Below are positions 1,080-49,435 of a stretch of 64,000 nt of DNA, piece by piece; within the stretch, counting starts at the first letter, position 1; every line of letters starts with the position of its first letter. The translations under genes and the position numbers were made by a program. Source of the stretch: Pachysolen tannophilus NRRL Y-2460 (taxonomy: Eukaryota); contig KV454018.1 in the NCBI GenBank assembly GCA_001661245.1, positions 569,569 to 633,568 on the forward strand, read 5' to 3'. The notes beneath the pieces are model-generated. The model was not told the DNA's origin. It did not search any database and saw only the letters and a list, made by a program, of their open reading frames with translations.

Positions 1080-2675
1080 CTAGAATCAATTTACTTAATT
1101 TACTCAAATCTATTTATTCTACTTTGTCTTTTTATAAATGTTATAAATTTTTTCATTTTTTTTTTTTCTTTTTGGTATTGTATTATGAATCCATATTATA
1201 ATAATATCTCTTTGCTGATCAGCCAATTGGGGCTTTTCAAAATGTAGAGAAAATAAAGAGTAAGTTTAAAGTAAGGTAAAAGGTAAGTTAAGGTAATAAT
1301 AATAGAATTAAGTACTCGGTTTGCGGTGGCAAAAAATTTCTTATTTTGTCCCCCCCCTTTCCTGCTTGTTGTCACCGACCGGAGTTTGCCTTTATTGTAA
1401 CAAGACTTGATTTATTTTTTAATATAAATTATAAGATGCAAATCTATATACTTACATATACTCCAACTTGGTTTCAAGATATTAATTGAGTCTTTTTCTC
1501 TCCTAATATCAATATTAAGTTAAAGATAACATAAGTTAATATATGTGTTATATATGCTACTTCTTGTTTGTTGCATCATCGGAATTTAGATAGTAAACGC
1601 AACTTTTTCAAGACTAGTTAAAACTAAAAAGCGAAAATGCAACTAGTTTGATATTTGCCGAACGACACAACCTCAAATTGCCTGCTTTCCTTGTTTTTTT
1701 TTCCTAAACTTTTGATTTGCCACACATGGGTTCAAGCAAAAAAAAAAGAAAGTGGGGCAAAAGTTTCCTTACGATTGTCCGTAAAATATGAGCCCACATG
1801 TAACCCACTTAAACTAATTTTTTTGTCCTACTGATGTAAAAGTGCTAAGGTTTACTAGTTTCTATTGTCCGTAAATATTTACTTAAATTCTTACTATGGG
1901 GAAACATTCATCTGCATATATGTTTAATGAACAGGCAAATGCAAAAAAAAAAATAGAAAAAAAAAGGGGGGTTAGGGTTAAGGTTGAGGTTTTGTTTAAT
2001 TTTTCTATTTTGTATTCTCTTGAAAAGTTAAATCTGTACTCATCAGGCATGTTTCTGCTTCATGCTTTCTGATTTATGCTTTCTACATGCTGTTATTAAA
2101 TGTATCTGATCAAAAATACATATATCCGAGAGATTGTATTTTGTGCTTAAAAATAATTGAAACCTAAAGTTTAAATACTTAAAACAGGGCTGGACTGATT
2201 TCAATATAAAGAAAAATATAAACTAACTAGCTCTAAGTTACTACTAGTTACTGCTTCGATGAATAAAAAATAGTTCAAAATTAATTTAACTTCAAGGTTA
2301 AAGGCACAAGAAGAGTCTTCTGTAATGTCTAAATTTATCTACGAGGTAGAGAAAGAAAAATTTAATATACATTTTTTTATCTTTTTATCTTTTATCTTTG
2401 CAGTTTTGAAAGCAGGTACCAAAATAATAGTGAGGAATTTTTTTTTTCTTTTTAAGTTAATTAAATTGTTGATCTCTCATCTCTTTGTTTACGGCTCTAC
2501 ATTTTACATTTTACATTTACGTTTAAATTTTCTTTTTAATACTTTGAATTTTTTTTTCATAATATTTTTTTTTTTTTTTTTTTTTACAAATTATCTCTAT
2601 ATATATATGAACGTACCGGACTCTTCATAAAATTAAGAGACTCTTCTTTACTCCTCCGCCTATTAATTGATCACA

Positions 2676-4682
2676 TTATTGACAAAATTTCCTATCCAAT
2701 TCTTTTAAAACACTTGCCACAGAACCTGCTTCAACTAACATTCCTCTTGTGGTTAATTTACCAATTAAAGTGTTGAAACTAACCAAATTGAAATTTTCAT
2801 GTCTCGATAAAGTTTTATATGCATCAGCACACGGTATGAAAAGATCCTTGTTATTGTTGTTGTTATTGGTGTTATTGGTGTTGGTGCTGCTCTTTTTCTC
2901 AATAGCCGTTCCTGGTGCTGTTGCTGTTCCTGGTGCAGTGGTTGACACATCGGATTCTTCTCTTCTAGCAATAGTAGTGCAAAAAAGTGTAGACATTGGA
3001 TCTTTTTGACATTGTAAACATGTACCTGGATTCCCTGTACATTCCAGAATTTTTTTCTTTTCTTGAACTTCCTCTGGTTGTTGCTGTTTGTCTTCAATAA
3101 CAGCAGCTGCAGCAGCAGCTGCAGAAGCTGCAGATGTGGCTATAGTCGATGTTATCTTGCCATTGTTGAATTCAACAGATGGTCCAGGATGTAAAACAGG
3201 TAAAGACTTTCTATTCATGTTAGTTTCATTCAATTTAATTGGAGGAAGACTGGTTGACAGTAAATCATCTTCTGGATCTGTCGAACCAGTTCCTGAACCA
3301 GTTCCTGAACCTCTTGTACCACTTAACGATGAGGTCATCAACAGTTGCTTTTTAGCCAACGCCTCTGCCTCCTTTGCCGCCTCACGACAAACACATGGTG
3401 TATCATCTGAACAAAACCCACAATCATCTCCAGGATCCAAAAAATCAACTTCTGTAATACTGCTCTGTTGGAACAATGATCCTTGGTGTAAGTAGTCCCC
3501 GCTGCTTACATCGACATTTACATTTAAGCCATTTGAATTATTTGAACCATTGGAAATAGATGTCTTTGGACGTTGATCATCATTATAATAATCTTTCTTG
3601 AACAATTTTGAAAGATCTGGCATTGGTTTTTTCCTTGCAAATTTCAGTGTGAAATCAATTTCATTTTCATCTTCATGTAATTGCGAGTACCTTTTCCTTT
3701 TCAACGGAACAGCAGCCACAGGTGTAAACGACTTCAAATTTTCCATATTTGCCGCAGCAGCAGCAGCAGCAGATGTTGCTGATACTGCTGTTGATGTTGT
3801 ACTCGTTGCACTAGTCGCATTCGTTCCAGGTTGCTTCAAGCCCAACGATTCACATATACAATCGTCCTTCAGACAAACCCCACAATCGTACCCCTCTTTG
3901 GATAGAGACAACGACGAGCCCAGTGATCTAGATCCAGACAAGCCATTAGATGCCTGTGTCTGCGACAACGTCTGTGACAGTGTTGGTGCCTGTGCTGTGG
4001 TATTTTTCGGAGATATACTAATATTATTTATTATGTTTGGAGAGTTTGCACTTGATGAGACTGGAGATATTTGTTGAACCGAATAAGCAGTAGAAGAAGA
4101 ATGAGGGCTTGAATGTGTTGAATTAGTTTGTTTACCGATATTGACGTTACCATAAGGTGTTGGGGTTGGTTGTACACTTATTGTCTTCAGATTTTGATTT
4201 TGAATTGAAGGTGAATATTCATTTGTTGAACTGGACATGGAAGCTATTGATTGGCCCGAATGAAAGCCCGGGTATTGTTGCTTATAAGAATTTAATTGTC
4301 TTTGTAAATCTTGAACATTTTTAATTAAATTTTGATTTTCATTTTTTAAAGTTTTTATATGATTATTTAATAAACCTTCTTTAATGGCTCTTTCTTTTTC
4401 AATTTCCATAATTTTACCTTCCAACTCAGAAACTCGATTTGCTCTTCTTTCTCTAAAAGCTCTTTGTGCAGCTCTATTTTGAGCTTTTCTCTTAGTAGAT
4501 GGTGTATCAATGCTCGGTTTCCGCCCCGGTTTTGGCCTTGGAGGTAAAACCCACTCTTTAGAAGTGACTATCCTCGTAATCACCGACCTTTGCTTCTCCT
4601 GATTCATTCTTGGTGCAATAGAACCTGGAGATGACGATGAAGATGACTGTGGAATTACTTGCGACTGAACGTTTGCAGTCAT
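2676..4682 (-). CDS. HAP43: HapX/Hap43 iron-responsive bZIP transcription factor
   Basis: Hap4-like domain IVTSKEWVLPPRPKPGRKP, then bZIP KRKAQNRAAQRAFRERR, then Cys-rich clusters CGVCxKDDCIC, CGFCSDDTPCVC, CTGNPGTCLQCQKDPMSTLFC and IPCADAYKTL. First ATG at 4682 (the track starts at TTG 4688). Confidence 0.92.
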   Translation of the reverse strand: MTANVQSQVIPQSSSSSSPGSIAPRMNQEKQRSVITRIVTSKEWVLPPRPKPGRKPSIDTPSTKRKAQNRAAQRAFRERRANRVSELEGKIMEIEKERAIKEGLLNNHIKTLKNENQNLIKNVQDLQRQLNSYKQQYPGFHSGQSIASMSSSTNEYSPSIQNQNLKTISVQPTPTPYGNVNIGKQTNSTHSSPHSSSTAYSVQQISPVSSSANSPNIINNISISPKNTTAQAPTLSQTLSQTQASNGLSGSRSLGSSLSLSKEGYDCGVCLKDDCICESLGLKQPGTNATSATSTTSTAVSATSAAAAAAANMENLKSFTPVAAVPLKRKRYSQLHEDENEIDFTLKFARKKPMPDLSKLFKKDYYNDDQRPKTSISNGSNNSNGLNVNVDVSSGDYLHQGSLFQQSSITEVDFLDPGDDCGFCSDDTPCVCREAAKEAEALAKKQLLMTSSLSGTRGSGTGSGTGSTDPEDDLLSTSLPPIKLNETNMNRKSLPVLHPGPSVEFNNGKITSTIATSAASAAAAAAAVIEDKQQQPEEVQEKKKILECTGNPGTCLQCQKDPMSTLFCTTIARREESDVSTTAPGTATAPGTAIEKKSSTNTNNTNNNNNNKDLFIPCADAYKTLSRHENFNLVSFNTLIGKLTTRGMLVEAGSVASVLKELDRKFCQ

Positions 4683-13935: not shown

Positions 13936-14454
13936 TTAATTAAATAAATGATTTAAATTATTATTTTATCTTCAAAAATTGCTGTGATTTGTGAGTTTTT
14001 ATTTTTTTTTCCTTATATATAATGATACAAGAAAACTTTTTTTTAAAAAAAAAAAAAAAAAGAAAAAGAAAGAGAAAGACAAGGCAAGGCAAAAAATGAA
14101 TAAGAAAAACTAGTATAATCAATAGCTTTTTTTTTTGTTGTCATACCGGAAAAGAAAAGCAGAAACAATTGATTGATAAAAAAAAAAAGAGAAAAAAGAA
14201 CAAAAATTNNNNNNNNNNNNNNNNNNNNNNNNNNNNNNNNNNNNNNNNNNNNNNNNNNNNNNNNNNNNNNNNNNNNNNNNNNNNNNNNNNNNNNNNNNNN
14301 NNNNNNNNNNNNNNNNNNNNNNNNNNNNNNNNNNNNNNNNNNNNNNNNNNNNNNNNNNNNNNNNNNNNNNNNNNNNNNNNNNNNNNNNNNNNNNNNNNNN
14401 NNNNNNNNNNNNNNNNNNNNNNNNNNNNNNNNNNNNNNNNNNNNNNNNNNNNNN

Positions 14455-16994: not shown

Positions 16995-17610
16995 ATAATA
17001 AATATTAGTATAAATTTCATATAAAAGAACAACAATTTTTTTTTTTTTTTATTATATTGATTCTCTCTTTTCTTTCTCTATTTCAAAATAATAAAAAAAA
17101 AAAAAAAAAAAANNNNNNNNNNNNNNNNNNNNNNNNNNNNNNNNNNNNNNNNNNNNNNNNNNNNNNNNNNNNNNNNNNNNNNNNNNNNNNNNNNNNNNNN
17201 NNNNNNNNNNNNNNNNNNNNNNNNNNNNNNNNNNNNNNNNNNNNNNNNNNNNNNNNNNNNNNNNNNNNNNNNNNNNNNNNNNNNNNNNNNNNNNNNNNNN
17301 NNNNNNNNNNNNNNNNNNNNNNNNNNNNNNNNNNNNNNNNNNNNNNNNNNNNNNNNNNNNNNNNNNNNNNNNNNNNNNNNNNNNNNNNNNNNNNNNNNNN
17401 NNNNNNNNNNNNNNNNNNNNNNNNNNNNNNNNNNNNNNNNNNNNNNNNNNNNNNNNNNNNNNNNNNNNNNNNNNNNNNNNNNNNNNNNNNNNNNNNNNNN
17501 NNNNNNNNNNNNNNNNNNNNNNNNNNNNNNNCAATAAAAAAAAAAAAAAAAAAAAAAATAAAAAACAAAAGTATTAGTAATAATAGTAGTAGTTGGATGA
17601 TGATTTTATT

Positions 17611-19002
17611 TTAAGCTTCAACAAAAGCTCTATAAGTTGTAAATTCTTCATCATCATTTGAAGTCAATTCGATTTCAATACCTGGTGCAATGAAAAATGT
17701 AAAACCTTCATTTGCTTTTAATTTTGTTGAATCATTTTTAATTTGAATAAAACCATCACCTTTTGTTACAATTAAAATTGAAGGACCTTTAAATTTATCA
17801 AAAGTTCTAATACTTCCCTTTGGAGTTTTCTTAAATTGAGTTTGTAAAACTGCAAATTCTGCAATTGGTGGATCATATAAGACACTAATACCATCACCAT
17901 GAGATCTTGGAAAATTTAATTTTTCCATAATTTGTTTTTCAACTCCACCATAAGAATAAGTTAACATTTCAACTAAATTTTTAACATCTTTAAATTTTGG
18001 TGTAAAACCTGCTCTAACAACATTATCAGATGCAGCCATACATTCAATAATATCTCCACTTATATATGCATGTGGATCTTTTGCTTGTAAAAACATTGCT
18101 TCACCAGCTTTTAATTTACAATGATTTAATAATAAACAACCACAAAAAAGACCAATATCATTTGGAAATTGTTCATTAAGATTTTGAATAAGTTTAGCTA
18201 AAGATTCACCAAATAATTCAGGTTGAGAATGAGTTCTTTTAACTAAAGATTTTGCCTTTTCAGTAATAATATCTTCTGATGTATTCATCAATTTACCAAA
18301 AAGTTTTTGTAATAATTTTCTATTATTTGAATCTTCTAATGAATTAATTTCCAGATTTGGTTTAATACCTTTTGCAAATTCAATAGAAATTTCATCACCA
18401 ATAATTTCTTTAAATTCAGGAATTTTTTCCAATAATTCATTAATCAGTTCTAAAGGTTTAAATCCACAAAAACCTTCAAATTCTGTAACAGCAATTGCCA
18501 TTTCAGGTTTATGATTATCATCTGGATAATTCTTTGGATCAACAAAATGTAATTTTTTCCCTAATTCTTTATCAGGATGAGCTTGAATTGATAATACTTT
18601 TTCAATTGATAATACTTTAAATAAAAATGGTAATTCTTCATTTGAACCAAATTTTTCAATAATTTCCTTTCCCAATAATTCTTGAGGATGTGCTTTAATC
18701 AAATCTCTTAATTTTTCTCCAGTTGAACTTTTAATCGAAGGAACAGATGGATGAGTACCCATCCATAATTCTGCATAAGGCTTTGTTTCATCAATTTTAA
18801 CTGCTTTATCAGATTGAGCAGCAAATCTAGCAACTGCAGATGTTGACCCAATCTTACCCCAACCATAATTCTGGTATCCTTCACAAACAAACCCATTCTT
18901 GTCAGTAAAATCCAGATCATAATCGATTTTATTAACGAAAAAAAAAAACAACTTTTTATCTATTTACATACCACAATGTATTTGAAATAATCCGGATGAC
19001 AT
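17611..19002 (-). CDS. PMI40: Mannose-6-phosphate isomerase; exons 19002-18972 and 18878-17611, 93-nt intron
   Basis: YAELWMGTH, LSIQAHP and NHKPEM motifs. Exon 1 MSSGLFQIHC-G, donor GTATGT at 18971, branch TACTGAC at 18907-18901, acceptor AAG ending 18879; the spliced product reads CGYQNYGWGK. Confidence 0.93.
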
Positions 19003-19497
19003 GTTCAACTACGATACAACAACAACAAAAAAAAAACAAAAAAAAACAACTAAAAGTTTAAATAAATAAATAATTAAAACTCAACAACAATTAAGTCAAT
19101 TGCTATTTTAAAATATATATATTTATATATATATATTTATAAGATGAAACAGACAAAATAATATATAAACGATACCTTTAATACCAATAATTTACTCGTG
19201 CGCTTCAACATGTGAAATGAAAAGTGAAATTTTCAAAAAAAAAAAAAAAAAAAAAAAATACTGTGCTGGAATACGCATTTCAGTAAACTAAAGCGCACGC
19301 AAGTGCACATTAGAAGAAGGTTTATTTGCGTAAGAGCACTTGTGTACCACACGTGCGCATTAGGGCTCTCACATTATGCTTACGCAAGTGCGGAAAGAGA
19401 CTTATTTAAAACAAGACAAAGAGATAAAAAGACAAAACGATATAACAAAGAGGTATCATATATATTGATTTCATCTAAATCACTTTAAAAACAAAGA

Positions 19498-20036
19498 ATG
19501 GATGATGAGTTTATAGAGACTTCTTCAGGTAACAAGATTTCGAAAAATGCACAGATTTCGGGCTCATCGAATATTCTGATTGCTGGTCAAACCACAATAA
19601 GTACAGGTTGTAAAATTCATGGAGATTTTTTAGGAAAAGACAAAAAGATATCTATTAATTTAGGAAAATATTGTTTTTTAAATCAAGGTGTAGAATTATT
19701 ACCACAAAAAGATGATGAAAAAAAAATTTATATAAACAAATGAAAATTGGATCTTATGTGATAATCAATAAAAATTCATTAATAAATACATCATATATTG
19801 GTAATAAAGTAATTATTGGTAAAAATTGTAAAATTGAAGGAATCATTTACGATTGTTGTATTATCAAAGACAACACGACTATAAATAAAACCACTGTAAT
19901 TCCTCCATTTAGTTTAGTGGAAAAATTACCAAACTCAAAAGAATTAAATATCGTTAATTTAAATGATAGCTATAAGAAACTTATTGAATTGGCGGCTAGA
20001 AAACTGCTCTTGTTAGGTTTGAAAGACAAAAAATAA
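19498..20036 (+). CDS. Dynactin p25 (DCTN5-like) beta-helix protein, split by a frameshift at an A9 run (19718-19726)
   Basis: ETSSGNKISKNAQISGSSNILIAGQT..IHGD in the first ORF; MKIGSYV..IGNKVIIGKNC..DCCIIKDNT..VIPPFS in the second. One added A joins them into 179 aa. Confidence 0.8.
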
Positions 20037-20369
20037 ACAAAAAGAATTCTAACAAAAGTTAGTTAGTTTAATTGAATATAAAATAAAATAAATGAATAAC
20101 TTTTCTTTGAATGACCAAATGCGGTAATTTAAACCGTAAAGAGTGGGTTTTTACTTACGATCAAAGTTAACAATTATTTCCGAATTAGGAAGTCAGGTTG
20201 TTGAATTAATTGAATTTGAATTGAAAATTTACAAAAACAGTTGTCAGTTTGAATGAATAAATTTTTTAATAATAAAAAATTTTAATTTCTTTATATATAT
20301 AATCAAAAAAAAAAAGAAGATAATTTTGTTGTGAATATTAAAGATTTAATCATAATTAATTAGTTGAAT

Positions 20370-21015
20370 ATGTCTGGTATGTTTTTTTTCTTTTTTTTCT
20401 TCTTTCTCTTGAATTTATACTAACAATTTATTTTGAATAAAAAAAAAACAGACTTTAGTTCCTTGGCTCGTATGTGGAATCTTATTATTTTTTTTAAACC
20501 AAGTTGAAATGATGCGATAAGATTTTTTTTTTGATCCATTGATACTAACAAAGCAATTTTTTTTTAATTTAGAACAATTTTGTGAATTTTATTATAATCA
20601 GTTTGATACTGATAGATCTCAATTGGGTAATCTCTACGTATGTAAATATTGATTTAAATTTTTTTTTTTTTTTTTGATTTATTATAAAAGATGATTTACT
20701 AATATCCTTTTTTTTTTTTTTGCTTCAATATAGAGAGATCAATCAATGTTAACTTTTGAGGCTTCTCAAACACAAGGTCCTAAAAATATTGTTGAAAAAT
20801 TATGTGGATTGGGGTTCTCTAAAGTTAAACATAGAATTTCAACTTTGGATGCACAACCTGCTTCTCCAAATGGTGATGTCTTGGTAATGGTCACCGGTGA
20901 ATTATTGATTGATGAGGAACAAAACGCCCAACGCTACTCTCAGGTATTTCACTTGATACCAGATGCTGGTTCATATTATGTCTTTAACGATATATTTAGA
21001 TTGAATTATTCATAG
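20370..21015 (+). CDS. NTF2: Nuclear transport factor 2; join(20370..20376,20452..20469,20573..20637,20734..21015), 123 aa
   Basis: Three GTATGT donors (20377, 20470, 20638), branches TACTAAC/TACTAAC/TACTAAT, acceptors CAG/TAG/TAG. Spliced protein [39 protein letters not shown]...[13 protein letters not shown]. Confidence 0.94.
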
Positions 21016-21379
21016 AGAGAGAGAGAAAAAAAAAGAAAATTTTTTTTTTTGCTTTCTTCATTATAATATTATTACTATTATTATTACTATTTTTTTTTGT
21101 TTGTTTCAACTTACTACTCTTTATACTTATTTGATTGTCTTTAATTTAAGCTCTCGTCGTTGTCGTTGTCGTTGTTGTAGTTCTCTTGTTGTAAAAATTT
21201 TTGTTAGTGGAAAATTGTTTTGATTTGTATCGCACGACTTGGGTTTCTTTTTAGACAAAATTCTTTATTGCGTTTTTGGTACAATTTTTATATAATTGTT
21301 TTTTTAAATAATATATAATTTATAATTGAATCTATAATTATTCACTATTTATTTAGATTAAAGGTCAACAATTAAAAAA

Positions 21380-23715
21380 ATGCAAGATATTCCTGCAATT
21401 CCTAGAAGGCCAAAGACCAATACAGCTTCTTCTTCTAATAGTGATATTCCGCAAATTCCGTCCAATCGTCCAAATAGAAAACCCACTTTTTCTGAACTGG
21501 AAAAGGACAACGATAATGATGGTGCAGATACAAGTGAAGAGGAAATGGCTAGTTCAATTCCAGATGGATCTGGAAGCTCTAAGCTTTATGGCAAAGATGA
21601 CCTGGTAGAGGATATGACAGTTGAAAAAGAAACGGAAACAGATCCGTTATCAATTGAAGGAGAATCAGTAGTGAAAGAAGAAGACGCGTCACCAATTCCA
21701 ATTATTCCTAAAAGACCTAAAACTCATATTAAAGAATCAATTGAAACCCACAATGATGATCAAAGCGATGACTTGTCCTTGAAACAGACTTTAGATCAAG
21801 GTGAAGATAATGTTTTGGTGGAACGGGAGCCTCATAATGAAGCAAAAGGATCTTTTGATACAGTTACAAGCATTGCGAGCCCGTTGAGCGCTACAAGTGC
21901 AACAAGTGCTACAAGCGCGGCAAGCGCTGCAAGTGCTACAAGTCCTTCATTGCCAACAATTCCTAAAAGAAGACCAGTGCGTGGTAGATCTGAAAATATT
22001 GATAATGGTACAATTACCCCTTCGGGCAACATTAGTGCTCCAGATACTGCATCTACTCCTGAAAATTATGCTCCAAGAAATGAATCGAAATCAGCTGTTT
22101 TTGCTTCAGATAGTTCTGAATTACTAGATGCTTCTGCTGCTTTAGACTTAGCACAGGGCGGTCTGAGCTTTTCCGAAAATAAAAAAAACTGGAACAGCTG
22201 CAAGACAAAGAAGAACACGAAGAATTTGTACATGAAGAGGTATCGCTACCAGCAGAAGGAGAAGTGGAAGCGGAACTAGAAACTTGTTCAGCAGATTTAC
22301 TGCCTCAGTTGTCTTCTTCCTCAGTATCTTCTTCCTCATCTTCGCCGCTGATTGAAAAATTAACAGATTCTTCAATTCCACATATTCCTCAGCGTCCACT
22401 GCATAGACCTTTAAAGAAATCTTTAACTGGTACTTCTCTCGATAGTGGATCATCTTCCCCGGCAACTTCAACTGCAACAATAACAACAGTAGCTACAACA
22501 AAAGAAAATTCAGATAATGATTCATCTGAAATCCCTAAATTGAAGAAATCAGAGACAATTGATTCAGAAACTTCCTCCTCTTTGACAACAAAGAAAATTC
22601 CACCACCAATAAAGCCAAAGAAACCATCTTCTAAAATCTTGGCTTTCCAACAAATGCTCGCTCAACAACAACAAGAAGATCTGGCAAGATCTGGTAGAAG
22701 ACCACCACCTTTAGTTACTAGGAAATCTTTGTCACAAACTTCATCTAAAGAAGATGATAACTCAAAGGAATCACCAGAAATTGAAGAGAAATCTGGAAAT
22801 AATGAAGAAATAAGCATTGATCATAAAAATAAACCAGAAATTCCAAGGCATAGACCAACAAATAAATTTACTGGAAACAAAGCACTGTTTGCTAAAAATT
22901 TAAACGGAGTGTTTGCAGGAGGTATTGCTTTACCGGGTATGGTATTGCCAGGAATGGATCCACCAGCAGCCTTATCCAGCAGAAGTAAAGCTGACGATGA
23001 TAATGAAGACGATGACGACGACGAAGATGATGATAATAGTAATAATAGGTCCGATAAGAAAGCTCTGAGAAAAGTCACTGATGTTAGAAGAGGTCGGGCA
23101 AAAGGTCCGAGAGGTCGTAAATTACCAAGCAGTGTTCAAGACCCTGTCATTGTGGAAGAACAGAAGTATAAAGTATTTATCTCTGATTGTTGGCAAATTG
23201 GTTTCCTTGAAAAAAATGAAGCCGCAATTACTGCTGAGGCTACTGCTGAGAAGCAGACAAACGTCGATGACGAAAAACAAAAAGAAGATGTTGGAGAGAA
23301 TAATGAGGAAGACGAAGAGCTGCTTAAAGTCTCTGGAGCTAAAAATTCTTCTCAAATCAGTTTGTCAGGGGAAACTTCCAAATTCATCAATCGTCTTAAT
23401 GCAGAGAAATCTAATGATAACGATAAGGATAATATAGGGACTACAGACTCAATCGGAAATGACAACGAAAGTGAAGCCAAAATGCAAGAAAGGGAAAATC
23501 TTGATGTATCTACAAACACAGTTAACAGTTCTCAGCCAGAAGAGGAATATGTTGATGCAGATCCAAAAAGTGATTTAATTTCCGAAAATTTTGAAAACGA
23601 CAATGAAGAAGCCGAACTGAAAAAAATACCGGTTACAGAAGAAGAGGCAATAGCTGAACTATTAGATGATTACGGAAATAATTCAGATGGAGAAGTAGAA
23701 AAAGACAATGCGTGA
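21380..23715 (+). CDS. AIM21: Aim21 actin regulator, split by a frameshift at an A8 run (22181-22188)
   Basis: Repeated P(I)PxRP motifs, KKIPPPIKPKKPSSKILAFQQML, FAKNLNG..ALPGM and DVRRGRAKGPRGRKLP. One added A gives a continuous 778-aa ORF. Confidence 0.82.
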
Positions 23716-24488
23716 AATTTGTTTTCTTTTTTTGTTTTTTTTTTTGTTTTTTTCTTCTTCTTCTTCTTCTTGTCATGCCTTTTAAAAAACTAAAACTAAG
23801 TAGCACGGTTTCTATGATTGTGTTTTTGATTCTTTTTTTGGTTTGTTTGTTTACAATTTTATCTATTTTATGCATTTATGACTTAAAAGATAGCAAACAA
23901 AGCTTTTCTTAATCGGAATCGGTACTATAGACTGATAACCAAAAAGGGAAAATGTAATCCGGAAACTTGGGTTACTGCTTCCAAGCCTCATTTAACCGAA
24001 CAAAACCCTTAAATAATCCCTCTAAACGGTGGGAAAATATCTCGTTATTCTCATAATCGGACATTGTATTGTTTATAAATTTATAAAATTTATGCATAAG
24101 CGTGCATATGCTTTAGCTTGCACCGAGACCGAACGAGTCTGTTTTAGAGCGGGCATTGGAGATCCTGATGAAAAATTTTTCCTTATTTGCCTGCAACCCA
24201 TTTATTTATTTACCTTATGTTTCAAAAACTTCTTTCTTTCTTTCTTTCTTCTGTCTTTGTATCTTTGACTTTGGTGATTTGCAAATCCTATTATTCGATC
24301 GCTATTCAAAGTTTTGGTCTGTCGTTCGTTTTTCTTTAGTTCCCAAACTTTGTTCTATAGTTACTCAAGACTTATTTTTTGCTTTTTTTTTTCTTTTTTT
24401 TCTTTTTTTTCTTTTTTTCTTTTTAATTTTTCCAAGTGTATATTTGGATAGAGTAAATAACGAAGCCAAAATTTAAAAGAAACAGAAA

Positions 24489-25871
24489 ATGAAGGTATTA
24501 CAATTAGTTCAGGCTTTGTTAGCTACTTCAGTTTTAGCAGTTCAAGCTGTACCCATCATAAATGTTACAGGTAACGCATTTTTTGATTCTGAGTCTGGTG
24601 ATAGATTCTACATTAGAGGTGTCGACTATCAACCAGGTGGAAGTAGTAACTTGTCTGATCCTTTAGCTGATGAGACCACTTGTGAAAGAGATATTCCTGT
24701 ATTCACTGATTTGGGTATTAACACTATTAGAGTTTACTCAGTTGATAATTCCAAAAACCATGACGCTTGTATGAAATTACTTGAAGAGGCAGAAATTTAT
24801 GTGATCTTGGATGTAAATACTCCAGACGCTGCTATTTCTAGAACTTGTCCAAGTGGAAGTTATAACGCTGAATATCTTCAAAATGTTTTTGCTACTATAG
24901 ATAGTTTTCAAAACTTTACCAATGTCTTGGGTTTTTTCGCTGGTAATGAAGTTATTAATAGTGTAAACACCACTGATGCAGCACCATACGTCAAAGCAGT
25001 TGTTAGAGATATGAAAAATTATATGGATGCTAGATCATATAGAGCCATCCCAGTTGGTTATTCTTCAGCTGATATTGCTTCCATTAGACTTGATATTGCC
25101 GAGTACTTCAATTGTGGTAACGATAGTACTGCAAGAATTGATTTCCTAGGTGTAAACGATTATTCGTGGTGTGGTTACTCTTCTTTTACCACATCTGGTT
25201 ATGCTGAAAAAGTTGAATTATATTCTGGTTACTCCATTCCAATATTCTTGTCAGAATTTGGCTGTAACGAAGTCACTGGTTCTAGACCATTTACTGAAGT
25301 AGGAGCCATTTATTCTACCGAAATGTCATCAGTTTTCTCTGGTGGTTTAGTTTATGAATATTCTGAAGAAAGCAACGATTATGGTCTTGTTGATATTGTA
25401 TCATCTACTAATGTTACCAAATTAACTGATTTCTATAACTTGAAAGATGAATTTGAAGAAACTGATGATCCTTCTGGCGATGGTGGTTACTCTGATTCCT
25501 ATAATTATTCTACATGTCCTGATTGGGATGTCACTACAACTTTACCTTCTATGCCTGAAGGCGCTGAAAAATATCTTACAAGTGGTGCTGGTACTGGTGA
25601 AGGATTTGAAGCTTCAACTGAATACTGTGATTCTGAAGATGATGAGGAAACCAGTGACTCTTCAAGCTCGAGTACATCAAAAACTGCTTCGGCAACACTG
25701 TCTGCTCTGCTGTCTTCATCTGTATCTTCTTCTTCATCTTCTTCAAGTTCTTCAAGTGCTGCAGGTGTCACCTTCTCTGCTCCATCGATTTTTAAAATAT
25801 CAGAGTTCAATAGCTTTGCTACTCTGATTGCAACTGTTGCCATTTTCGTTGGTTTTACATTCTTATTCTGA
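24489..25871 (+). CDS. GAS5: GH72 beta-1,3-glucanosyltransferase, GPI-anchored, no Cys-box domain (Gas5-type); the last codons derive from the inverted segment
   Basis: Signal peptide, RFYIRGVDYQPGG, FFAGNEV, LSEFGCN and FSGGLVYEY, Ser-rich linker, hydrophobic C-terminus. Confidence 0.9.
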   Translation: MKVLQLVQALLATSVLAVQAVPIINVTGNAFFDSESGDRFYIRGVDYQPGGSSNLSDPLADETTCERDIPVFTDLGINTIRVYSVDNSKNHDACMKLLEEAEIYVILDVNTPDAAISRTCPSGSYNAEYLQNVFATIDSFQNFTNVLGFFAGNEVINSVNTTDAAPYVKAVVRDMKNYMDARSYRAIPVGYSSADIASIRLDIAEYFNCGNDSTARIDFLGVNDYSWCGYSSFTTSGYAEKVELYSGYSIPIFLSEFGCNEVTGSRPFTEVGAIYSTEMSSVFSGGLVYEYSEESNDYGLVDIVSSTNVTKLTDFYNLKDEFEETDDPSGDGGYSDSYNYSTCPDWDVTTTLPSMPEGAEKYLTSGAGTGEGFEASTEYCDSEDDEETSDSSSSSTSKTASATLSALLSSSVSSSSSSSSSSSAAGVTFSAPSIFKISEFNSFATLIATVAIFVGFTFLF

Positions 25872-26622
25872 TGATTCCCTCATAATTAAAAATGAACTTA
25901 TTCCTAGAACCATTTCATCAAAATTGGCCAATACTTTACAATTACCTAGAAGGACTTCTACAGGATTATTTAGATATCTTAAAGCCGGCTACACATTTAT
26001 ATCGGGAAGAGGTTACGTTTCCTTAACTGGTATTGGTCAAGTTTATCAAGTTTCCTTGAAAGAAAATGAAGAGTTTTTAATTCAAAGAGATAATTTATTG
26101 GCATTAACTATTAATGGTGAATCAGATTTAGCTAGCGCGGTTACTTCTTATAATTTCTCTGGGAATCTGAAAAGACAAAATAAACCAGTTGAAACACAAC
26201 CGGGATCCGCACTTGAACCTAACTTAGGATCTAAAATTCATCAATACTTAAATCAAGTGAAATCATCTTTGAAATTTACTACAAATATTGCTACTTCTTA
26301 TTCCAACAAGATTTATAACTCATTAACCGGTAACAATAATTTTGTCAAAATTTTAGGACCTAGAAATATCTTGTTACAATCAAATTCAAATTTCCAATTA
26401 ACCAGTGGTATTAGAAATTTTAATCGTGCCATCGACCTTAATGAAATCACAAAAACTGAAAAATTAATCAAATCTTCACACGAATTTTCTCAACCAAAAA
26501 AGTCATCTGCAGATTATTTAAGTTATGTAACTGTTAAAGATGGCAAAGCTGAGTTTAGAAATACTCCTAATTTTAATGACACCGTTCGCAAAATTGAAGA
26601 AGCTGCAACCAAGAAAGTATGA
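25855..26622 (+). pseudogene. AIM24: AIM24 C-terminal half, no ATG, inside the inverted segment
   Basis: LHSYSDDSLIIK..GYTFISGRGYVSLTGIGQVYQVSLKENEEFLIQRDNLLAL..FVKILGPRNILLQS..DYLSYVTV are Aim24 C-terminal motifs. Confidence 0.85.
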
Positions 26623-27023
26623 TTATACTAATATTCCCTTTTCTTATAATTCCCATACGTATATACTTTAGATTTAAATGCATTTACAATGAATGAACTA
26701 GACTTTTTTTTTTTTGATAGTTACTTTAGATTTTATATTGTTTTTAAAAAATATTAAAATGATCTTTTTAACATGAAAAAATTACGTACTTATTATAAAA
26801 AATGTGCAAGTCTAAATAATCCAGAAAGGCCAAAAAAAGGGTATGTTTTGTGTATGAGATATTTTAATTATCGTCATAGTCACAGTTCACCACATGAAAT
26901 AAAAAATAAAGTTAAAAGTATATATATATATATATATATAGAAATGTATGTATGTATGAGTGAATGATTGGTTTTAATTCTATCCGAGCCGTAGCCTATA
27001 TCACATCTAAGCAGACATAATTA
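25855..27023. other. 1,169-bp inverted segment (breakpoints uncertain by 1 nt)
   Basis: Reverse-complementing this interval restores a continuous AIM24 ORF and an alternative GAS5 ending VGLIMSA*, with no bases gained or lost. Confidence 0.88.
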
Positions 27024-27593
27024 TGCTCTTGTTGGGAAAACTGCCCAGTCAATTCTTCCATCAAGTGACAAATTCACAAAAGATTTTTCAGAAACTGAAG
27101 TTTTAATAAAAAGTCTTGATAAAAAATTTTTTCTAGAATCAGTGGAAACTAAGACATTAAATGGTACTGTTGAAATTAATTTTTTATAACTCGATGTGAA
27201 CCCTCCATAGAAAAACCTCTTAATAGGAGAAATTATTTCCAACTGACTAGTAACTGAGCTAATTGAATTATTGGTTTTTTTACCTGATATAGAAGAACCA
27301 TATAAAGATACCAATGACCCATTTTTAATATATACTGGAACAGATGGTGGTAAATTGAACGATAAAAGTGAAGACGTATTACCCATTTTTTGAAATTGTG
27401 GGTTTGCAGAATCTGGAACATTCAAAGTAATCTCTTCAACCCCATTAGAGCCATTGTTATTAACATCAAAGTTAATGGATGTAGTACGTGATGAATTTCC
27501 AGTAGAAGACAATTGTGATATCGAAACACTCCGACGAAATGCAAGTTGCCGGACACTTTTCAATTCATGTGAAATTAAACTCTTCTTCATCAT
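27021..27593 (-). pseudogene. AIM24: AIM24 N-terminal half, truncated at the inversion junction
   Basis: Presequence-like N-terminus, PQFQKMGNTSSLLSFNLPPSVPVYIKNGSLVSLYG and FVNLSLDGRIDWAVF; ends abruptly at PTRA*. Confidence 0.85.
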
Positions 27594-27997
27594 CCCATTA
27601 GTAAGAGTAAGACCGGATCACCATATATAATTTACTATCAATAATACCCTTCTTATTTTATTTTTTTTTGTTGGTAAATATGATTCCTTAGCCATTGTAG
27701 TTTGTTACGGTGATGAAGATGAAGCCTAGCCAGCATCTCCACCTACTATTTTGGGCCAAGTGGTACTTAACCTTTCCCACTATCCGTTCGACTATTGGTC
27801 AGATAACGAAAAACTTGTAAATTTGGTCAGATCAAGCCAGTACCATTAGAAACTTCATTTTGAATCTTCTAGGATCAAATGCCTTCAAGGCCCTGATATG
27901 ATCTTAACTGAAGCTGAACCAATTGAATGGTATTATTCTCTTCTTACTCCAGAGAGGATGATTTGATTGATGAAACAAGGAAAAAAAAAAATACAAT

Positions 27998-28112
27998 TGC
28001 TCCCGGCGGGGATTGAACCCGCGACCATCGCGTTCCTCACACGAATCTAACATAGAATGTCAAGATTTGAACAACTATAAGCACGAAGCGCTAACCTCTG
28101 CGCCACAAGAGC
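27998..28112 (-). tRNA. tRNA-Ile(UAU) with 42-nt intron, copy 1
   Basis: GCTCTTG acceptor stem, A-box TGGCGCAGAGG, anticodon loop CT-TAT-A then intron, T-arm GGTTCAATCC; T-rich terminator downstream. Confidence 0.93.
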
Positions 28113-28453
28113 AACTGCATGAGCCAGTTGTTCAGAGGTTGCATACTTGAGCATACTTTCCTACGCTCAATTTTTTGTTAAATTTTAAAATTAATACTAA
28201 ATACTTTCAACTAGTGGTATAAGTAAGTTATTAGATTTCTTTTTTTTTTTGCTTTTTAAACCCATTTCTGACATTTCCGCAGAGATTGAGAGAGTAACAA
28301 AAAGGTGAGAAGTTCATTGTAGTGTTTATAACGTACTAGATTAATAATAATAATAATAATTTAAAAAATTTAAATAGTAAATAGCATAGTTGGAATTTGG
28401 TTATTGCTCATTGATACTTGAATTATTTTAGCCATATCTTCGCTTACGCACCT

Positions 28454-28568
28454 GCTCCTGTGGCGCAGAGGTTAGCGCTTCGTGCTTATAGTTGTTCAAA
28501 TCTTGACATTCTATGTTAGATTCGTGTGAGGAACGCGATGGTCGCGGGTTCAATCCCCGCCGGGAGCA
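28454..28568 (+). tRNA. tRNA-Ile(UAU) with 42-nt intron, copy 2
   Basis: Same cloverleaf with GCTCCTG acceptor stem, identical intron, poly-T terminator. Confidence 0.93.
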
Positions 28569-28978
28569 GAAGTGTTTTTTTNNNNNNNNNNNNNNNNNNN
28601 NNNNNNNNNNNNNNNNNNNNNNNNNNNNNNNNNNNNNNNNNNNNNNNNNNNNNNNNNNNNNNNNNNNNNNNNNNNNNNNNNNNNNNNNNNNNNNNNNNNN
28701 NNNNNNNNNNNNNNNNNNNNNNNNNNNNNNNNNNNNNNNNNNNNNNNNNNNNNNNNNNNNNNNNNNNNNNNNNTTGCTTTTTAAACCCATTTCTGACATT
28801 TCCGCAGAGATTGAGAGAGTAACAAAAAGGTGAGAAGTTCATTGTAGTGTTTATAACGTACTAGATTAATAATAATAATAATAATTTAAAAAATTTAAAT
28901 AGTAAATAGCATAGTTGGAATTTGGTTATTGCTCATTGATACTTGAATTATTTTAGCCATATCTTCGCTTACGCACCT

Positions 28979-35516: not shown

Positions 35517-35998
35517 TTTTTTTTTTCAAAAAAAAAAAAAAAAAAGAACTTTAATTTACTACACACACNNNNNNNNNNNNNNNNNNNNNNNNNNNNNNNN
35601 NNNNNNNNNNNNNNNNNNNNNNNNNNNNNNNNNNNNNNNNNNNNNNNNNNNNNNNNNNNNNNNNNNNNNNNNNNNNNNNNNNNNNNNNNNNNNNNNNNNN
35701 NNNNNNNNNNNNNNNNNNNNNNNNNNNNNNNNNNNNNNNNNNNNNNNNNNNNNNNNNNNNNNNNNNNNNNNNNNNNNNNNNNNNNNNNNNNNNNNNNNNN
35801 NNNNNNNNNNNNNNNNNNNNNNNNNNNNNNNNNNNNNNNNNNNNNNNNNNNNNNNNNNNNNNNNNNNNNNNNNNNNNNNNNNNNNNNNNNNNNNNNNNNN
35901 NNNNNNNNNNNNNNNNNNNNNNNNNNNNNNNNNNNNNNNNNNNNNNNNNNNNNNNNNNNNNNNNNNNNNNNNNNNNNNNNNNNNNNNNNNNNNNNNNN

Positions 35999-40925: not shown

Positions 40926-41238
40926 AACTCTGTTACCTTTCCTATAGTGTGTCAACCTTCCCACTTTTCAATCTTAGACTATCATCAAAAAAGCCAATAA
41001 ATCACCTCCGCTATCAATTAGGAAAAACAATATATATTATTATTGCATTTATTCTATGTACAATTTTTCTTTGTTCTTTTTTCCTTTGTTTACCTTTTAG
41101 CTATTTTGTATGGTGAAATCTCTCACTAAGGAAAAGAAAATTGAGGTAGTGCGCATTTATTTCAAAAAATCAAAAAGAGGAAGTATTAAACTGGTATCTA
41201 ATGGGTTTTGCCAGGGAAGTTTCCCTTCCAAGAAAGTT

Positions 41239-41312
41239 GGTTTTGTGGTCTAGTTGGTTATGGCATCTGCTTAACACGCAGAACGTCCCCAGTTCGATCC
41301 TGGGCAAAATCA
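41239..41312 (+). tRNA. tRNA-Val(AAC)
   Basis: GGTTTTGTGGTCTAGTTGG..TT-AAC-AC..GTTCGATCC..CAAAATCA; 74-nt cloverleaf with a T-run downstream. Confidence 0.95.
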
Positions 41313-41612
41313 AGGTTTTCTTTTTATTTTTTTTAGTTACTACTTTTTTTTGTTATAATTTTTCATTTTCATTAGTTAAATTGTGTTAATTGTAGAAGAA
41401 GTAAAAGATGTAAACATCTTATTTAAGGATCTATGCCGAAAAAAAAAACATATATATGTGAATGAAAGGTATGTAAAAAGAAAGAAAAAAAGAAAAAAAA
41501 AACAAAACGAAACTTGAACAATAAAGTAAATAAAAAAAAAAATTTAACCAACCTTTTGAGCAACAGTAATAATAAACGATTAAGAAAAAGAAAAAACAGT
41601 TTTTTTTTTTTT

Positions 41613-42517
41613 TTAGTAATTATTTTCTTCAAAATATGGATGTAACAATGCTCTTTTTGCACTAATTCTACCAGCTGGGTCAAATATCAATAAATTTTCT
41701 AATAAATCAATTCCATCAGGATCTAAACTAGTTACAATTTCACTTAAATTTTTTTTTGACCATTTAGGGAAAGTTGGTTTAAAATCTGGTAAATAAGTAA
41801 TATCTGGCCAAATTTCTTCATTTGGAGTACCTAAAATTCTAAAAATTCTAAAAATTTCATCAATTTCAGAATCACCTGGAAAAATTGGTTTTCTATTACT
41901 CATTTCTGCAAATATACAACCAACAGACCACATATCAACACCAGTTGAATATTGTTTCCCACCTAATAAAATTTCTGGAGATCTATACCATAAAGTAACA
42001 ACTTCATGAGTATAAGCTCTTAAAGGAACACCAAATGCTCTTGCTAATCCAAAATCAGCTAATTTCAAATTTCCTTCTTTATCAATAAGTAAATTTTGTG
42101 GTTTTAAATCTCTATGTAAAATTCTATGAGAATGACAATATAATATACCTTTAATTAATTGCATCATAAATTTTTTAACCATATCATTACCTAATCCAAC
42201 TCCAGACGGAATTGATTCCATATATTTTTTTAAATCCATATCCAAAAATTCAAAAACTAAATACAATTTATGAGAATCAGAATGAACTATATCATATAAT
42301 CGAACAATATTATCATCTTTTAACTCTTTTAATAATGAAATTTCTCTAATAGCAGTGGAAGGAACTCCTTCATCTTCAGATTCAAGACGAATTTTTTTTA
42401 ATGCAACAATACGATTATTCTGCCTTGTATCCAAAGCTTTATAAACAACACCATAAGTACCTATACCCAAAAAACCAAAAAAATATTTTGTTTTTGACTT
42501 TGTCAGTATTAAACCTC

Positions 42518-42552
<35 letters not shown>

Positions 42553-42645
42553 TATATAGTATACCTTTAAAGAATTAGAAGAAGAAAAAAAAAACTTACC
42601 TTCGCCTACCTTTTCTAACCTTTGAAAATCAGAAAGTTCAACCAT
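41613..42645 (-). CDS. CDC28: Cyclin-dependent kinase Cdk1; exons 42645-42600 and 42460-41613, 139-nt intron, 297 aa
   Basis: [23 protein letters not shown] and GDSEID. Donor GTAAGT at 42599, branch TACTGAC, acceptor TAG ending 42461; splicing restores GEGTYG. Confidence 0.97.
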
Positions 42646-42840
42646 TCTATATATACAACAAACACACTAATAAAAAAAAATAGCCAATCTCTTTTAATTA
42701 TTCAAAGATTACCTCCACTTTCTTTTCTTTTACCCTTTATTTCCTATAATAAATTATTACAATTTTTTACTGAATTATAAAGAAATAAAAGAAAAAAAAA
42801 TTTTGAAATTCAATTTCTTTTAATTTTTTTGTCTATTTTT

Positions 42841-48140: not shown

Positions 48141-49435
48141 TCTTAATTATTAACAAACAAGAAAAGAAAAGAAATCAAAATAATAATAATTTTAATTTTA
48201 ATAAAAAAAAAAAAAAGGGGAAAACAAACAAAAATGCTAATTTTAAATGCAAGTTCAAATTAAAAGATAAATGATCATATAATTATAATGAATGGACGTC
48301 AACAGATATATTAGTGACAAATAATGATTGATAATACCCGTATGAACTTTTATATATTTGATTGTGAAAAGTAAATAATATATATAAATCGATAAATTTA
48401 TATGGGCTAATTCGATGGGATGGGAAATGTACCAAAAACAAAAAAAAAAATTAAATCTTTAATATATAGATTATAATTTATTATTTTCTTTTTTTTTAAC
48501 AAGTTTTAATTTAACCTCAACAATGGTCATCAAAGTATGTTAAACGTTGAGGAGGGAAAAAAGTGAGTCAATAATTGAAACTGGGAAAGACAACAAAGAC
48601 AAAGGGAAATGAAACAAATAAACTTGACAAGGGTCAAAAGAAAGGGAAAAGTGAAACAAAGAAGTGAAAAGAAATTAAAAAATTAAAAGAAAGAAGCTCC
48701 AAACTGAATTGAATTGAATTGAACTGAACTGAATTTAAAGAAAAGAATTCAAAAATATTTGTTTCAAGTATCTTCCTCTTTGAATTTCCACTTTAAAAAG
48801 TTTGGAAAGTAGAATTATGGAAGAAAAAAAAAAAANNNNNNNNNNNNNNNNNNNNNNNNNNNNNNNNNNNNNNNNNNNNNNNNNNNNNNNNNNNNNNNNN
48901 NNNNNNNNNNNNNNNNNNNNNNNNNNNNNNNNNNNNNNNNNNNNNNNNNNNNNNNNNNNNNNNNNNNNNNNNNNNNNNNNNNNNNNNNNNNNNNNNNNNN
49001 NNNNNNNNNNNNNNNNNNNNNNNNNNNNNNNNNNNNNNNNNNNNNNNNNNNNNNNNNNNNNNNNNNNNNNNNNNNNNNNNNNNNNNNNNNNNNNNNNNNN
49101 NNNNNNNNNNNNNNNNNNNNNNNNNNNNNNNNNNNNNNNNNNNNNNNNNNNNNNNNNNNNNNNNNNNNNNNNNNNNNNNNNNNNNNNNNNNNNNNNNNNN
49201 NNNNNNNNNNNNNNNNNNNNNNNNNNNNNNNNNNNNNNNNNNNNNNNNNNNNNNNNNNNNNNNNNNNNNNNNNNNNNNNNNNNNNNNNNNNNNNNNNNNT
49301 TTTTTTTTGTTTTTCAGTTAAAGGTGCGGCTGGAGAAATAGATAATTTAAGGCACGTTAATGTACAGTTTTCAAATAAATAACAAAAATGAAGAAGTAAT
49401 TCTTTTTTTTAAAAAAAAAAAAATCAGGTTACAGG

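What the first reader, a model, noticed from the sequence alone, without database searches (positions are those of the whole stretch)
25855..27023. Clean 1,169-bp inversion splits AIM24 and swaps the GPI-signal tail of GAS5
Seen: the AIM24 N-half (minus strand, 27593-27024) ends ...DGRIDWAVFPTRA|taa. The AIM24 C-half lies on the opposite strand and starts at 25855 (tta cat tct tat = LHSYSDD...), overlapping the GAS5 stop. Reverse-complementing 25855-27023 joins aga gca|tta cat into one uninterrupted 445-aa AIM24. It also gives GAS5 gtt ggt t|ta att atg tct gct tag (VGLIMSA*), i.e. an ordinary convergent GAS5/AIM24 pair. Both junctions resolve with no base gained or lost. Only 1 nt of microhomology is present, with no flanking inverted repeats, no recombinase gene in the window and no N-gap at either junction. 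The current GAS5 end (VGFTFLF*) is still hydrophobic, so both orientations could give a GPI signal while AIM24 is on or off. Inference: a recent blunt end-joining inversion, a polymorphic or invertible segment, or a misassembly.
Basis: partly seen in the sequence, partly recalled or inferred. Interest (0 to 1): 0.9.

Follow-up and report, generated by a model that had tools for sequence, protein, structure and literature searches.

The report
Assembly-only inversion splitting yeast AIM24
The 1,169-base flip that cuts the yeast mitochondrial gene AIM24 in two is present in this genome record, but independent sequencing data of the same organism show the unflipped, intact arrangement, so it is almost certainly an assembly error and not biology.

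Summary
Reverse-complementing 25855-27023 joins a 190-aa and a 255-aa piece into one 445-aa Aim24, and GAS5 stays 460 aa with a different five-residue tail. The joined protein aligns as a single stretch across the junction to Aim24 of Ascoidea rubescens and to an Ogataea polymorpha homologue (halves).

The decisive test goes against biology. In 4 of 4 public runs laid (two studies), one contig of 3.6-3.7 kb covers 24433-28027 with the segment on the strand opposite to that in the window. That is the restored orientation. No contig carries the window's orientation.

Apart from the flip, the window differs from those contigs by no substitution. It differs only by five shortened homopolymers, and it is a gapped draft.

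There are no flanking inverted repeats. No recombinase family was found in the 28 ORFs scanned.

The flip is already in the public record: the database's own GAS5 model, P0003, carries the flipped tail.

Verdict: an assembly artefact (about 0.88). A real inversion private to the assembled isolate is about 0.08, and a switch about 0.02. Interest is low. The practical consequence is a falsely truncated Aim24 and a wrong GAS5 C-terminus in databases.

The parts
25855..27023 (.). The 1,169-bp segment that is flipped in this record relative to independent contigs
   Evidence: in 4 of 4 runs this segment lies on the strand opposite to its flanks within one continuous contig. The joints fall at 25854|27023 and 25855|27024, or 1 nt to the side ('both' = 1); flipping it restores both genes with no base gained or lost.
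27024..27593 (-). AIM24 N-terminal part (190 codons; in the record it runs into a stop at 27021-27023)
   Evidence: BLASTP to A. rubescens Aim24p P0001 residues 2-116 (E 3e-31) and to O. polymorpha P0002 residues 7-177 (E 2e-31). No Pfam hit on its own.
25855..26622 (+). AIM24 C-terminal part (255 codons plus stop), with no Met and no start of its own
   Evidence: Pfam PF01987 AIM24, 33.6 bits against a cut-off of 25.7. BLASTP to P0001 residues 120-350 (E 1e-55) and to P0002 residues 182-413 (E 1e-44).
24489..25871 (+). GAS5-like GH72 glucanosyltransferase as it reads in the record; the last five codons and the stop (from 25855 on) come from flipped AIM24 sequence
   Evidence: Pfam PF03198, 468.6 bits, profile positions 4-313 of 314. 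60-70% identity to yeast Gas5 proteins. Tails printed.
27007..27023 (-). The true end of GAS5 (last five codons and stop), displaced by the flip
   Evidence: in the restored orientation GAS5 ends ...VGLIMSA; contig letters run directly from window 25854 into the reverse complement of 27023 downward.
26623..27006 (.). Intergenic spacer between the convergent GAS5 and AIM24. It holds T12, A6 and A7 runs and a (TA)n tract.
   Evidence: contigs carry TT, A and A more than the window at 26703, 26745 and 26831. The tool skipped 26906-26974 as a repeat.

Best explanation
The inversion is an error of this genome record, introduced in assembly or finishing. It is not a feature of the organism. The true locus is an ordinary convergent pair: GAS5 (460 aa, tail VGLIMSA) and an intact AIM24 (445 aa). 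In the draft, a discrete 1,169-bp piece was set in backwards. Gene models taken from the record therefore show a 190-aa Aim24 stump, an unannotatable 255-codon fragment, and a GAS5 with five wrong C-terminal residues. Two things are shown: the reads' contigs carry the other orientation, and the record bears other error marks. How the assembler produced the flip is inferred only and remains unknown.
For: 1.. In 4 of 4 runs laid (X1, X3, X4 = one sample, study P1; X5 = another sample, study P2), a single contig of 3,637-3,717 nt aligns to the window in three blocks. These are 24433-25854/5, then 27022/3 down to 25855/6 on the opposite strand, then 27023/4-28027 or beyond. Record coordinates are contiguous and no letters lie between the blocks (table 5c: none).

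2.. In the bin holding the left junction (25812-25962), the depth equals that one contig's depth in every run (15.4, 68.6, 128.4, 117.1). No second contig lies there. No loose end is listed at either junction.

3.. There are 0 substitution rows over about 4.4 kb. There are 5 indel rows, each an extra 1-2 letters in the contigs, in 4 of 4 runs. One search places them at homopolymers of 6 to 12 bases. The window is therefore the same strain, with the shortened homopolymers expected of sequencing error.

4.. All 6 N runs are flanked by long homopolymers or (AT)n, so the window is a gapped draft scaffold.

5.. The C-terminal piece has no Met, yet it is a perfectly open 255-codon frame, still 41% identical to a relative. 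Nothing has decayed.

6.. No inverted repeats sit at the breakpoints. There was no recombinase, integrase or transposase family at E <= 1e-5 in any of the 28 ORFs scanned (21 had some other family and 7 had none).

7.. The database's own model of the window's GAS5 (P0003, contig of 947,628 nt) carries the flipped tail. The flip is therefore in the public record itself.
Against: - The usual causes of an assembly flip are absent. There is no repeat at the edges and no N gap at the joints. A base-perfect reciprocal flip inside a contig is hard to derive from a known assembler failure.
- I could not establish whether either sample laid is the one the record was assembled from. If it is neither, the assembled isolate could carry a private, real inversion.
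- Logan contigs drop rare variants (tool text), so a minority orientation in the cultures is not excluded.
- 34 pieces and 6 loose ends were not shown.
- Only contigs were available, not raw reads.
Confidence: 0.88

Rival explanations
1. A real, very recent two-break end-joining inversion, fixed only in the isolate or DNA preparation behind this assembly. It would inactivate AIM24 and change the GAS5 tail.
For: The joints are blunt with 1 nt of ambiguity, as end joining can give. No assembler-type cause (repeat or gap) lies at the joints. Complete lack of decay would fit a very young event. From general knowledge, not tested here: AIM24 is not essential in S. cerevisiae.
Against: 4 of 4 runs from two studies show only the other orientation, in otherwise substitution-free sequence. 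Two independent breaks rejoined without losing or gaining a single base at either joint is unusual for end joining (general knowledge). The record carries other error marks.
Confidence: 0.08
2. An invertible or polymorphic segment that toggles AIM24 on and off while keeping a hydrophobic GAS5 tail.
For: Both orientations leave GAS5 at 460 aa with a hydrophobic end. The exchange is conservative, as with site-specific recombinases.
Against: None of the 25 longest of 122 inverted-repeat pairs puts an arm at each breakpoint. No recombinase family was found in the 28 ORFs scanned. Only one orientation appears in the contigs of 4 of 4 runs, at word depths of 15 to 128. The off state has no start codon for the C-terminal piece and no plausible product.
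Confidence: 0.02
3. The flip was introduced into the window after the record was deposited, for example by later editing of the sequence.
For: A base-perfect reciprocal flip is what an in-silico operation gives.
Against: P0003 is the database's own protein for this locus, from a contig of 947,628 nt. It equals the window's GAS5 under table 26 letter for letter, including the flipped tail. The public record therefore already holds the flip.
Confidence: 0.01

Closest known systems
Orientation (inversion) errors of short pieces in draft genome assemblies
   Same: The flip exists in the record but not in independent contigs of the same strain. The record is a gapped draft with homopolymer errors. 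That inversions are a recognised class of assembly and scaffolding error is general knowledge. The papers listed were seen only as a search listing with abstract starts.
   Different: Such errors usually sit between gaps or at repeats. Here both joints are gap-free and repeat-free inside an 11-kb contig (17532-28581).
Site-specific invertible DNA switches (Hin/Gin, fimS, FLP/FRT of the yeast 2-micron plasmid; recalled, not searched)
   Same: The exchange is conservative, with no base gained or lost, and it changes what is expressed from the ends of the segment.
   Different: No inverted repeats at the ends, no recombinase family found in the ORFs scanned, and one orientation only in the contigs.
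Aim24 (PF01987), a mitochondrial inner-membrane protein that interacts with MICOS in S. cerevisiae (PMC3975624; search listing and abstract start seen)
   Same: The restored 445-aa protein is colinear with Aim24 of A. rubescens (43% identity over 385 columns) and with an O. polymorpha homologue (35% over 443 columns). The C-terminal half passes the Pfam cut-off.
   Different: Nothing unusual once restored. As the record stands, the gene is in two pieces on opposite strands.

Membership tests
Assembly artefact (misoriented piece) | Independent sequence data of the same strain contradict the record at both joints | tested here: met
   4 of 4 runs, from two studies, each have one contig with the segment on the opposite strand and both joints bridged by 48 or more letters. 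No contig is colinear with the window in the left-junction bin.
Assembly artefact (misoriented piece) | The record shows other marks of draft-quality error | tested here: met
   five homopolymer shortenings against the contigs, in 4 of 4 runs; six gaps at homopolymers; a probable frameshift in AIM21 at an A8 run.
Assembly artefact (misoriented piece) | The assembly's own source reads lack the flipped joints | not testable with these tools
   The source libraries of the record are not known to me.
Site-specific invertible switch | Inverted repeats (recombination sites) at both ends of the segment | tested here: not met
   of 122 inverted pairs, the 25 longest were shown, and none has an arm at each junction; only 1 nt is shared.
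Site-specific invertible switch | A recombinase gene nearby | tested here: not met
   28 ORFs of the window were scanned against Pfam at E <= 1e-5. None matched a recombinase, integrase or transposase family. Seven ORFs matched nothing.
Site-specific invertible switch | Both orientations present in a population | tested here: not met
   one orientation in the contigs of 4 of 4 runs. Caveat: contigs can hide minority forms.
AIM24 family (PF01987) | Match to the family profile above Pfam's cut-off | tested here: met
   C-terminal piece 33.6 bits against a cut-off of 25.7, profile positions 118-204 of 205. The N-terminal piece alone had no Pfam hit but matches Aim24 proteins by BLASTP.
AIM24 family (PF01987) | Full-length colinearity of the rejoined protein with known Aim24 | tested here: met
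   single alignments across residues 190/191 to P0001 (E 9e-92) and P0002 (E 1e-79).
GH72 Gas glucanosyltransferases (GAS5) | Complete Glyco_hydro_72 domain | tested here: met
   PF03198, 468.6 bits, profile positions 4-313 of 314.
GH72 Gas glucanosyltransferases (GAS5) | C-terminal GPI-attachment signal; which of the two tails is native | tested here: inconclusive
   the tails of 10 relatives are all hydrophobic but cannot be aligned to one another, so they do not tell the two tails apart. No GPI predictor was available. decides for VGLIMSA.

The most novel reading that the evidence does not exclude
The flip is real in the particular isolate that was assembled. That would be a base-perfect, repeat-free two-break inversion that arose within a laboratory lineage, knocking out AIM24 and swapping the GAS5 tail. 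Alternatively, it is a minority orientation that contigs cannot show.
Probability: 0.09. Interest if true: 0.35.

Novelty: not a real feature. Interest (0 to 1): 0.05.

Why it matters
There is no biological importance. The practical point is data hygiene. The public record yields a truncated 190-aa Aim24 and a GAS5 model with five wrong C-terminal residues (P0003). Comparative work could misread this as loss or splitting of AIM24 in this yeast lineage, or as a divergent GPI signal. The case also shows that a clean inversion which restores two genes when undone should be checked against reads before any switch is proposed.

Tried and rejected
- Whole genome of the window: none is held, so no genome-wide look for further flips was possible.
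- First homologue search with lengths 'longer' (448-2000 aa) found nothing. Aim24 proteins are shorter than that range. The 'near' search found 2 proteins.
- RNA evidence: no RNA holder was listed. Expression and the PTRA-LHSY junction in transcripts could not be examined.
X6 and X7 hold next to none of the words.
- Two other joint rows were set aside: 25745 to 27839 in 4 of 4 runs, and 25746 to 28236 in 1 of 4. Their shorter side is 21 letters, below the tool's 31-letter rule. They lie in the serine-codon repeat of GAS5.
- Loose ends at 24655, 24957, 25724/5, 27109, 27860 and elsewhere belong to other contigs that share short stretches. None is at a junction.
- GAS5 C-termini of relatives cannot discriminate between the two tails.
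- Earlier notes of this scan: two look-ups returned nothing.
- The idea that the flip was added to the window after deposition was rejected because P0003 already carries the flipped tail.
- The literature search on assembly inversions gave only Hi-C and long-read scaffolding papers, seen as a listing. None was read or used as evidence.

Full report
**What is in the sequence**

The window holds a GAS5-like gene on the plus strand (24489-25871, 460 aa). It has a complete Glyco_hydro_72 domain, at 468.6 bits.

On the minus strand, an ORF runs from 27593 to 27021 (190 aa), ending ...DWAVFPTRA. On the plus strand, a frame from 25855 to 26622 reads 255 codons starting LHSYSDD. This frame has no Met at all, and a stop lies nine codons upstream in the same frame. 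The 255-aa piece matches Pfam AIM24 (PF01987) at 33.6 bits, above the cut-off of 25.7. The 190-aa piece has no Pfam hit.

**The reconstruction holds**

A script reverse-complemented 25855-27023. This gave one 445-aa frame (190 + 255). GAS5 stays at 460 aa, with its last five residues changed from FTFLF to LIMSA.

The C-terminal piece found two homologues: Aim24p of Ascoidea rubescens (P0001, a partial record of 350 aa) and a 421-aa Ogataea polymorpha protein (P0002).

- The N-piece aligns to P0001 residues 2-116 and the C-piece to residues 120-350.
- The N-piece aligns to P0002 residues 7-177 and the C-piece to residues 182-413.
- The three or four residues left between the two alignments match in number on both sides, so nothing is missing at the joint.
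- The joined protein aligns as one stretch across residues 190/191: to P0001 over 67-444 against 2-350 (E 9e-92), and to P0002 over 1-438 against 7-413 (E 1e-79).

A chance open frame of 255 codons has P about 1e-8 at this window's stop frequency. That includes the 1-nt ambiguity of the joints ('both' = 1) and the absence of N at the joints.

**No switch apparatus**

Of 122 inverted-repeat pairs in 25300-27600, the 25 longest were listed. None has one arm at each breakpoint.

A Pfam scan of 28 ORFs across the window found ordinary yeast genes. Examples are Pet127, a UAA transporter, Nop16, PMI, Aim21, a DNA ligase and a CDK. There was no recombinase, integrase or transposase family. Seven of the 28 ORFs matched nothing.

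**The decisive test**

Five public runs hold 0.94 of the sampled words of 24000-28500. Four come from one sample of study P1 and one from another sample of study P2. I laid X1, X3, X4 and X5.

In each of the 4 runs, one contig (3,717, 3,637, 3,637 and 3,637 nt) covers the region in three blocks. For X3 these are:

- record 39-1460 on window 24433-25854, plus strand;
- record 1461-2631 on window 27023 down to 25855, minus strand. The tool skipped the (TA)n tract 26906-26974 within this block as a repeat;
- record 2632-3637 on window 27024-28027, plus strand.

Record coordinates run on without a break, and no letters lie between the blocks. The other three runs show the same layout, with the joints 1 nt to the side.

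The contigs therefore read left flank, then the reverse complement of the segment, then right flank. That is the restored orientation, with intact AIM24.

In the bin that holds the left junction, the summed depth equals that one contig's depth in every run (15.4, 68.6, 128.4, 117.1). No other contig lies there. In the bin with the right junction, the small excess is explained by another contig whose match begins at 27109, to the right of the joint. No loose end is listed at either junction.

There are caveats. These are contigs, not raw reads, so a minority form could be hidden. In addition, 34 pieces and 6 loose ends were not shown.

**The record bears other error marks**

Over the roughly 4.4 kb laid, there is no substitution between window and contigs. 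There are five indels, and in each one the contigs of all 4 runs carry 1-2 more letters than the window. They sit at T12, A6, A7, A11 and T11 runs.

This means the same strain, with the shortened homopolymers expected of sequencing error in the window.

All six N runs of the window are flanked by long homopolymers or (AT)n. That marks true gaps of a draft scaffold. The flip lies inside the contig 17532-28581.

Elsewhere, the AIM21 homologue is split into two overlapping frames, 21362-22279 and 22183-23715. The switch falls at an A8 run, 22181-22188. One more A would join the frames. This has the same signature but was not checked against reads.

**The flip is in the public record**

The GAS5 search returned P0003 (460 aa, 99% identity, sources '-', from a contig of 947,628 nt). 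P0003 equals the window's GAS5 letter for letter if CTG is read as Ala (NCBI table 26). All 4 of its 4 CTG codons are read that way, and it ends with the flipped tail. The error has therefore already passed into a protein database. The window also comes from a yeast that is treated as using the CUG-Ala code.

**Explanation**

The most likely reading (0.88) is that a discrete 1,169-bp piece was set in backwards during assembly or finishing of a draft genome.

- Shown: independent contigs contradict the record, the record has other errors, nothing has decayed, and no recombination apparatus was found.
- Inferred: that the record's own reads would also contradict it.
- Unknown: which assembler step caused the flip. 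The absence of repeats and gaps at the joints is the one feature that does not fit the usual failure modes.

The rival readings are:

- a real, very young end-joining inversion private to the assembled isolate (0.08);
- an invertible segment (0.02);
- a flip added to the window after deposition (0.01).

**Comparison with what is known**

Once restored, the locus is an ordinary convergent GAS5/AIM24 pair. Aim24 is known from S. cerevisiae as an inner-membrane protein that interacts with MICOS (PMC3975624; I saw the search listing and the start of the abstract only).

The C-terminal tails of 10 GAS5 relatives are hydrophobic but cannot be aligned to one another. They do not decide between the two tails. 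The contigs do.

**Verdict**

This is not a real feature of the organism, and interest is low (0.05). The useful outcome is a correction: the 190-aa Aim24 and the GAS5 tail in this record should not be used as evidence of gene loss or of a novel GPI signal.

Noticed in passing
window 24489-25868 (P0003): The database's own protein for this GAS5 equals the window's translation only under NCBI table 26 (CTG = Ala), at 4 of 4 CTG codons. The source is therefore treated as a CUG-Ala yeast. One CTG lies in the AIM24 C-terminal piece, at codon 105.
   Followed up: partly
window 21362-23715 (+), switch at 22181-22188: The AIM21 homologue is split into two overlapping frames at an A8 run. One more A would join them. 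This is probably a homopolymer undercall like the five seen against the contigs. It was not checked against reads.
   Followed up: partly
window N runs 14209-14454, 17113-17531, 28582-28773, 35569-35998, 48836-49299, 53373-53984: All six N runs are flanked by long poly-A, poly-T or (AT)n tracts. They look like real scaffold gaps of a draft assembly, not masked genes. The window's GC content is 29%.
   Followed up: yes
window 26703, 26745, 26831, 27980, 28239: Homopolymers (T12, A6, A7, A11, T11) are 1-2 letters shorter in the window than in the contigs of all 4 runs laid.
   Followed up: yes
window 41613-42650 (-): A CDC28-like kinase has a short first exon ([16 protein letters not shown]) and an intron containing a long trinucleotide repeat. 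This is an ordinary split by an intron, not an error.
   Followed up: partly
window 28520-28581: A tRNA-like 3' end (T-arm-like sequence followed by a T run) abuts the gap at 28582. ARAGORN reported only one tRNA in the window, tRNA-Val at 41238-41313.
   Followed up: no
P0001 and P0109 (Ascoidea rubescens): The Aim24p and a GH72 protein of A. rubescens are both listed from a contig of 3,341,275 nt, so they share a scaffold there. Whether they are adjacent could not be checked.
   Followed up: no
window 26906-26974: By record arithmetic, the (TA)n tract spans 67 letters in the X3 contig against 69 in the window. The tool skipped it as a repeat, so the difference is unresolved.
   Followed up: no
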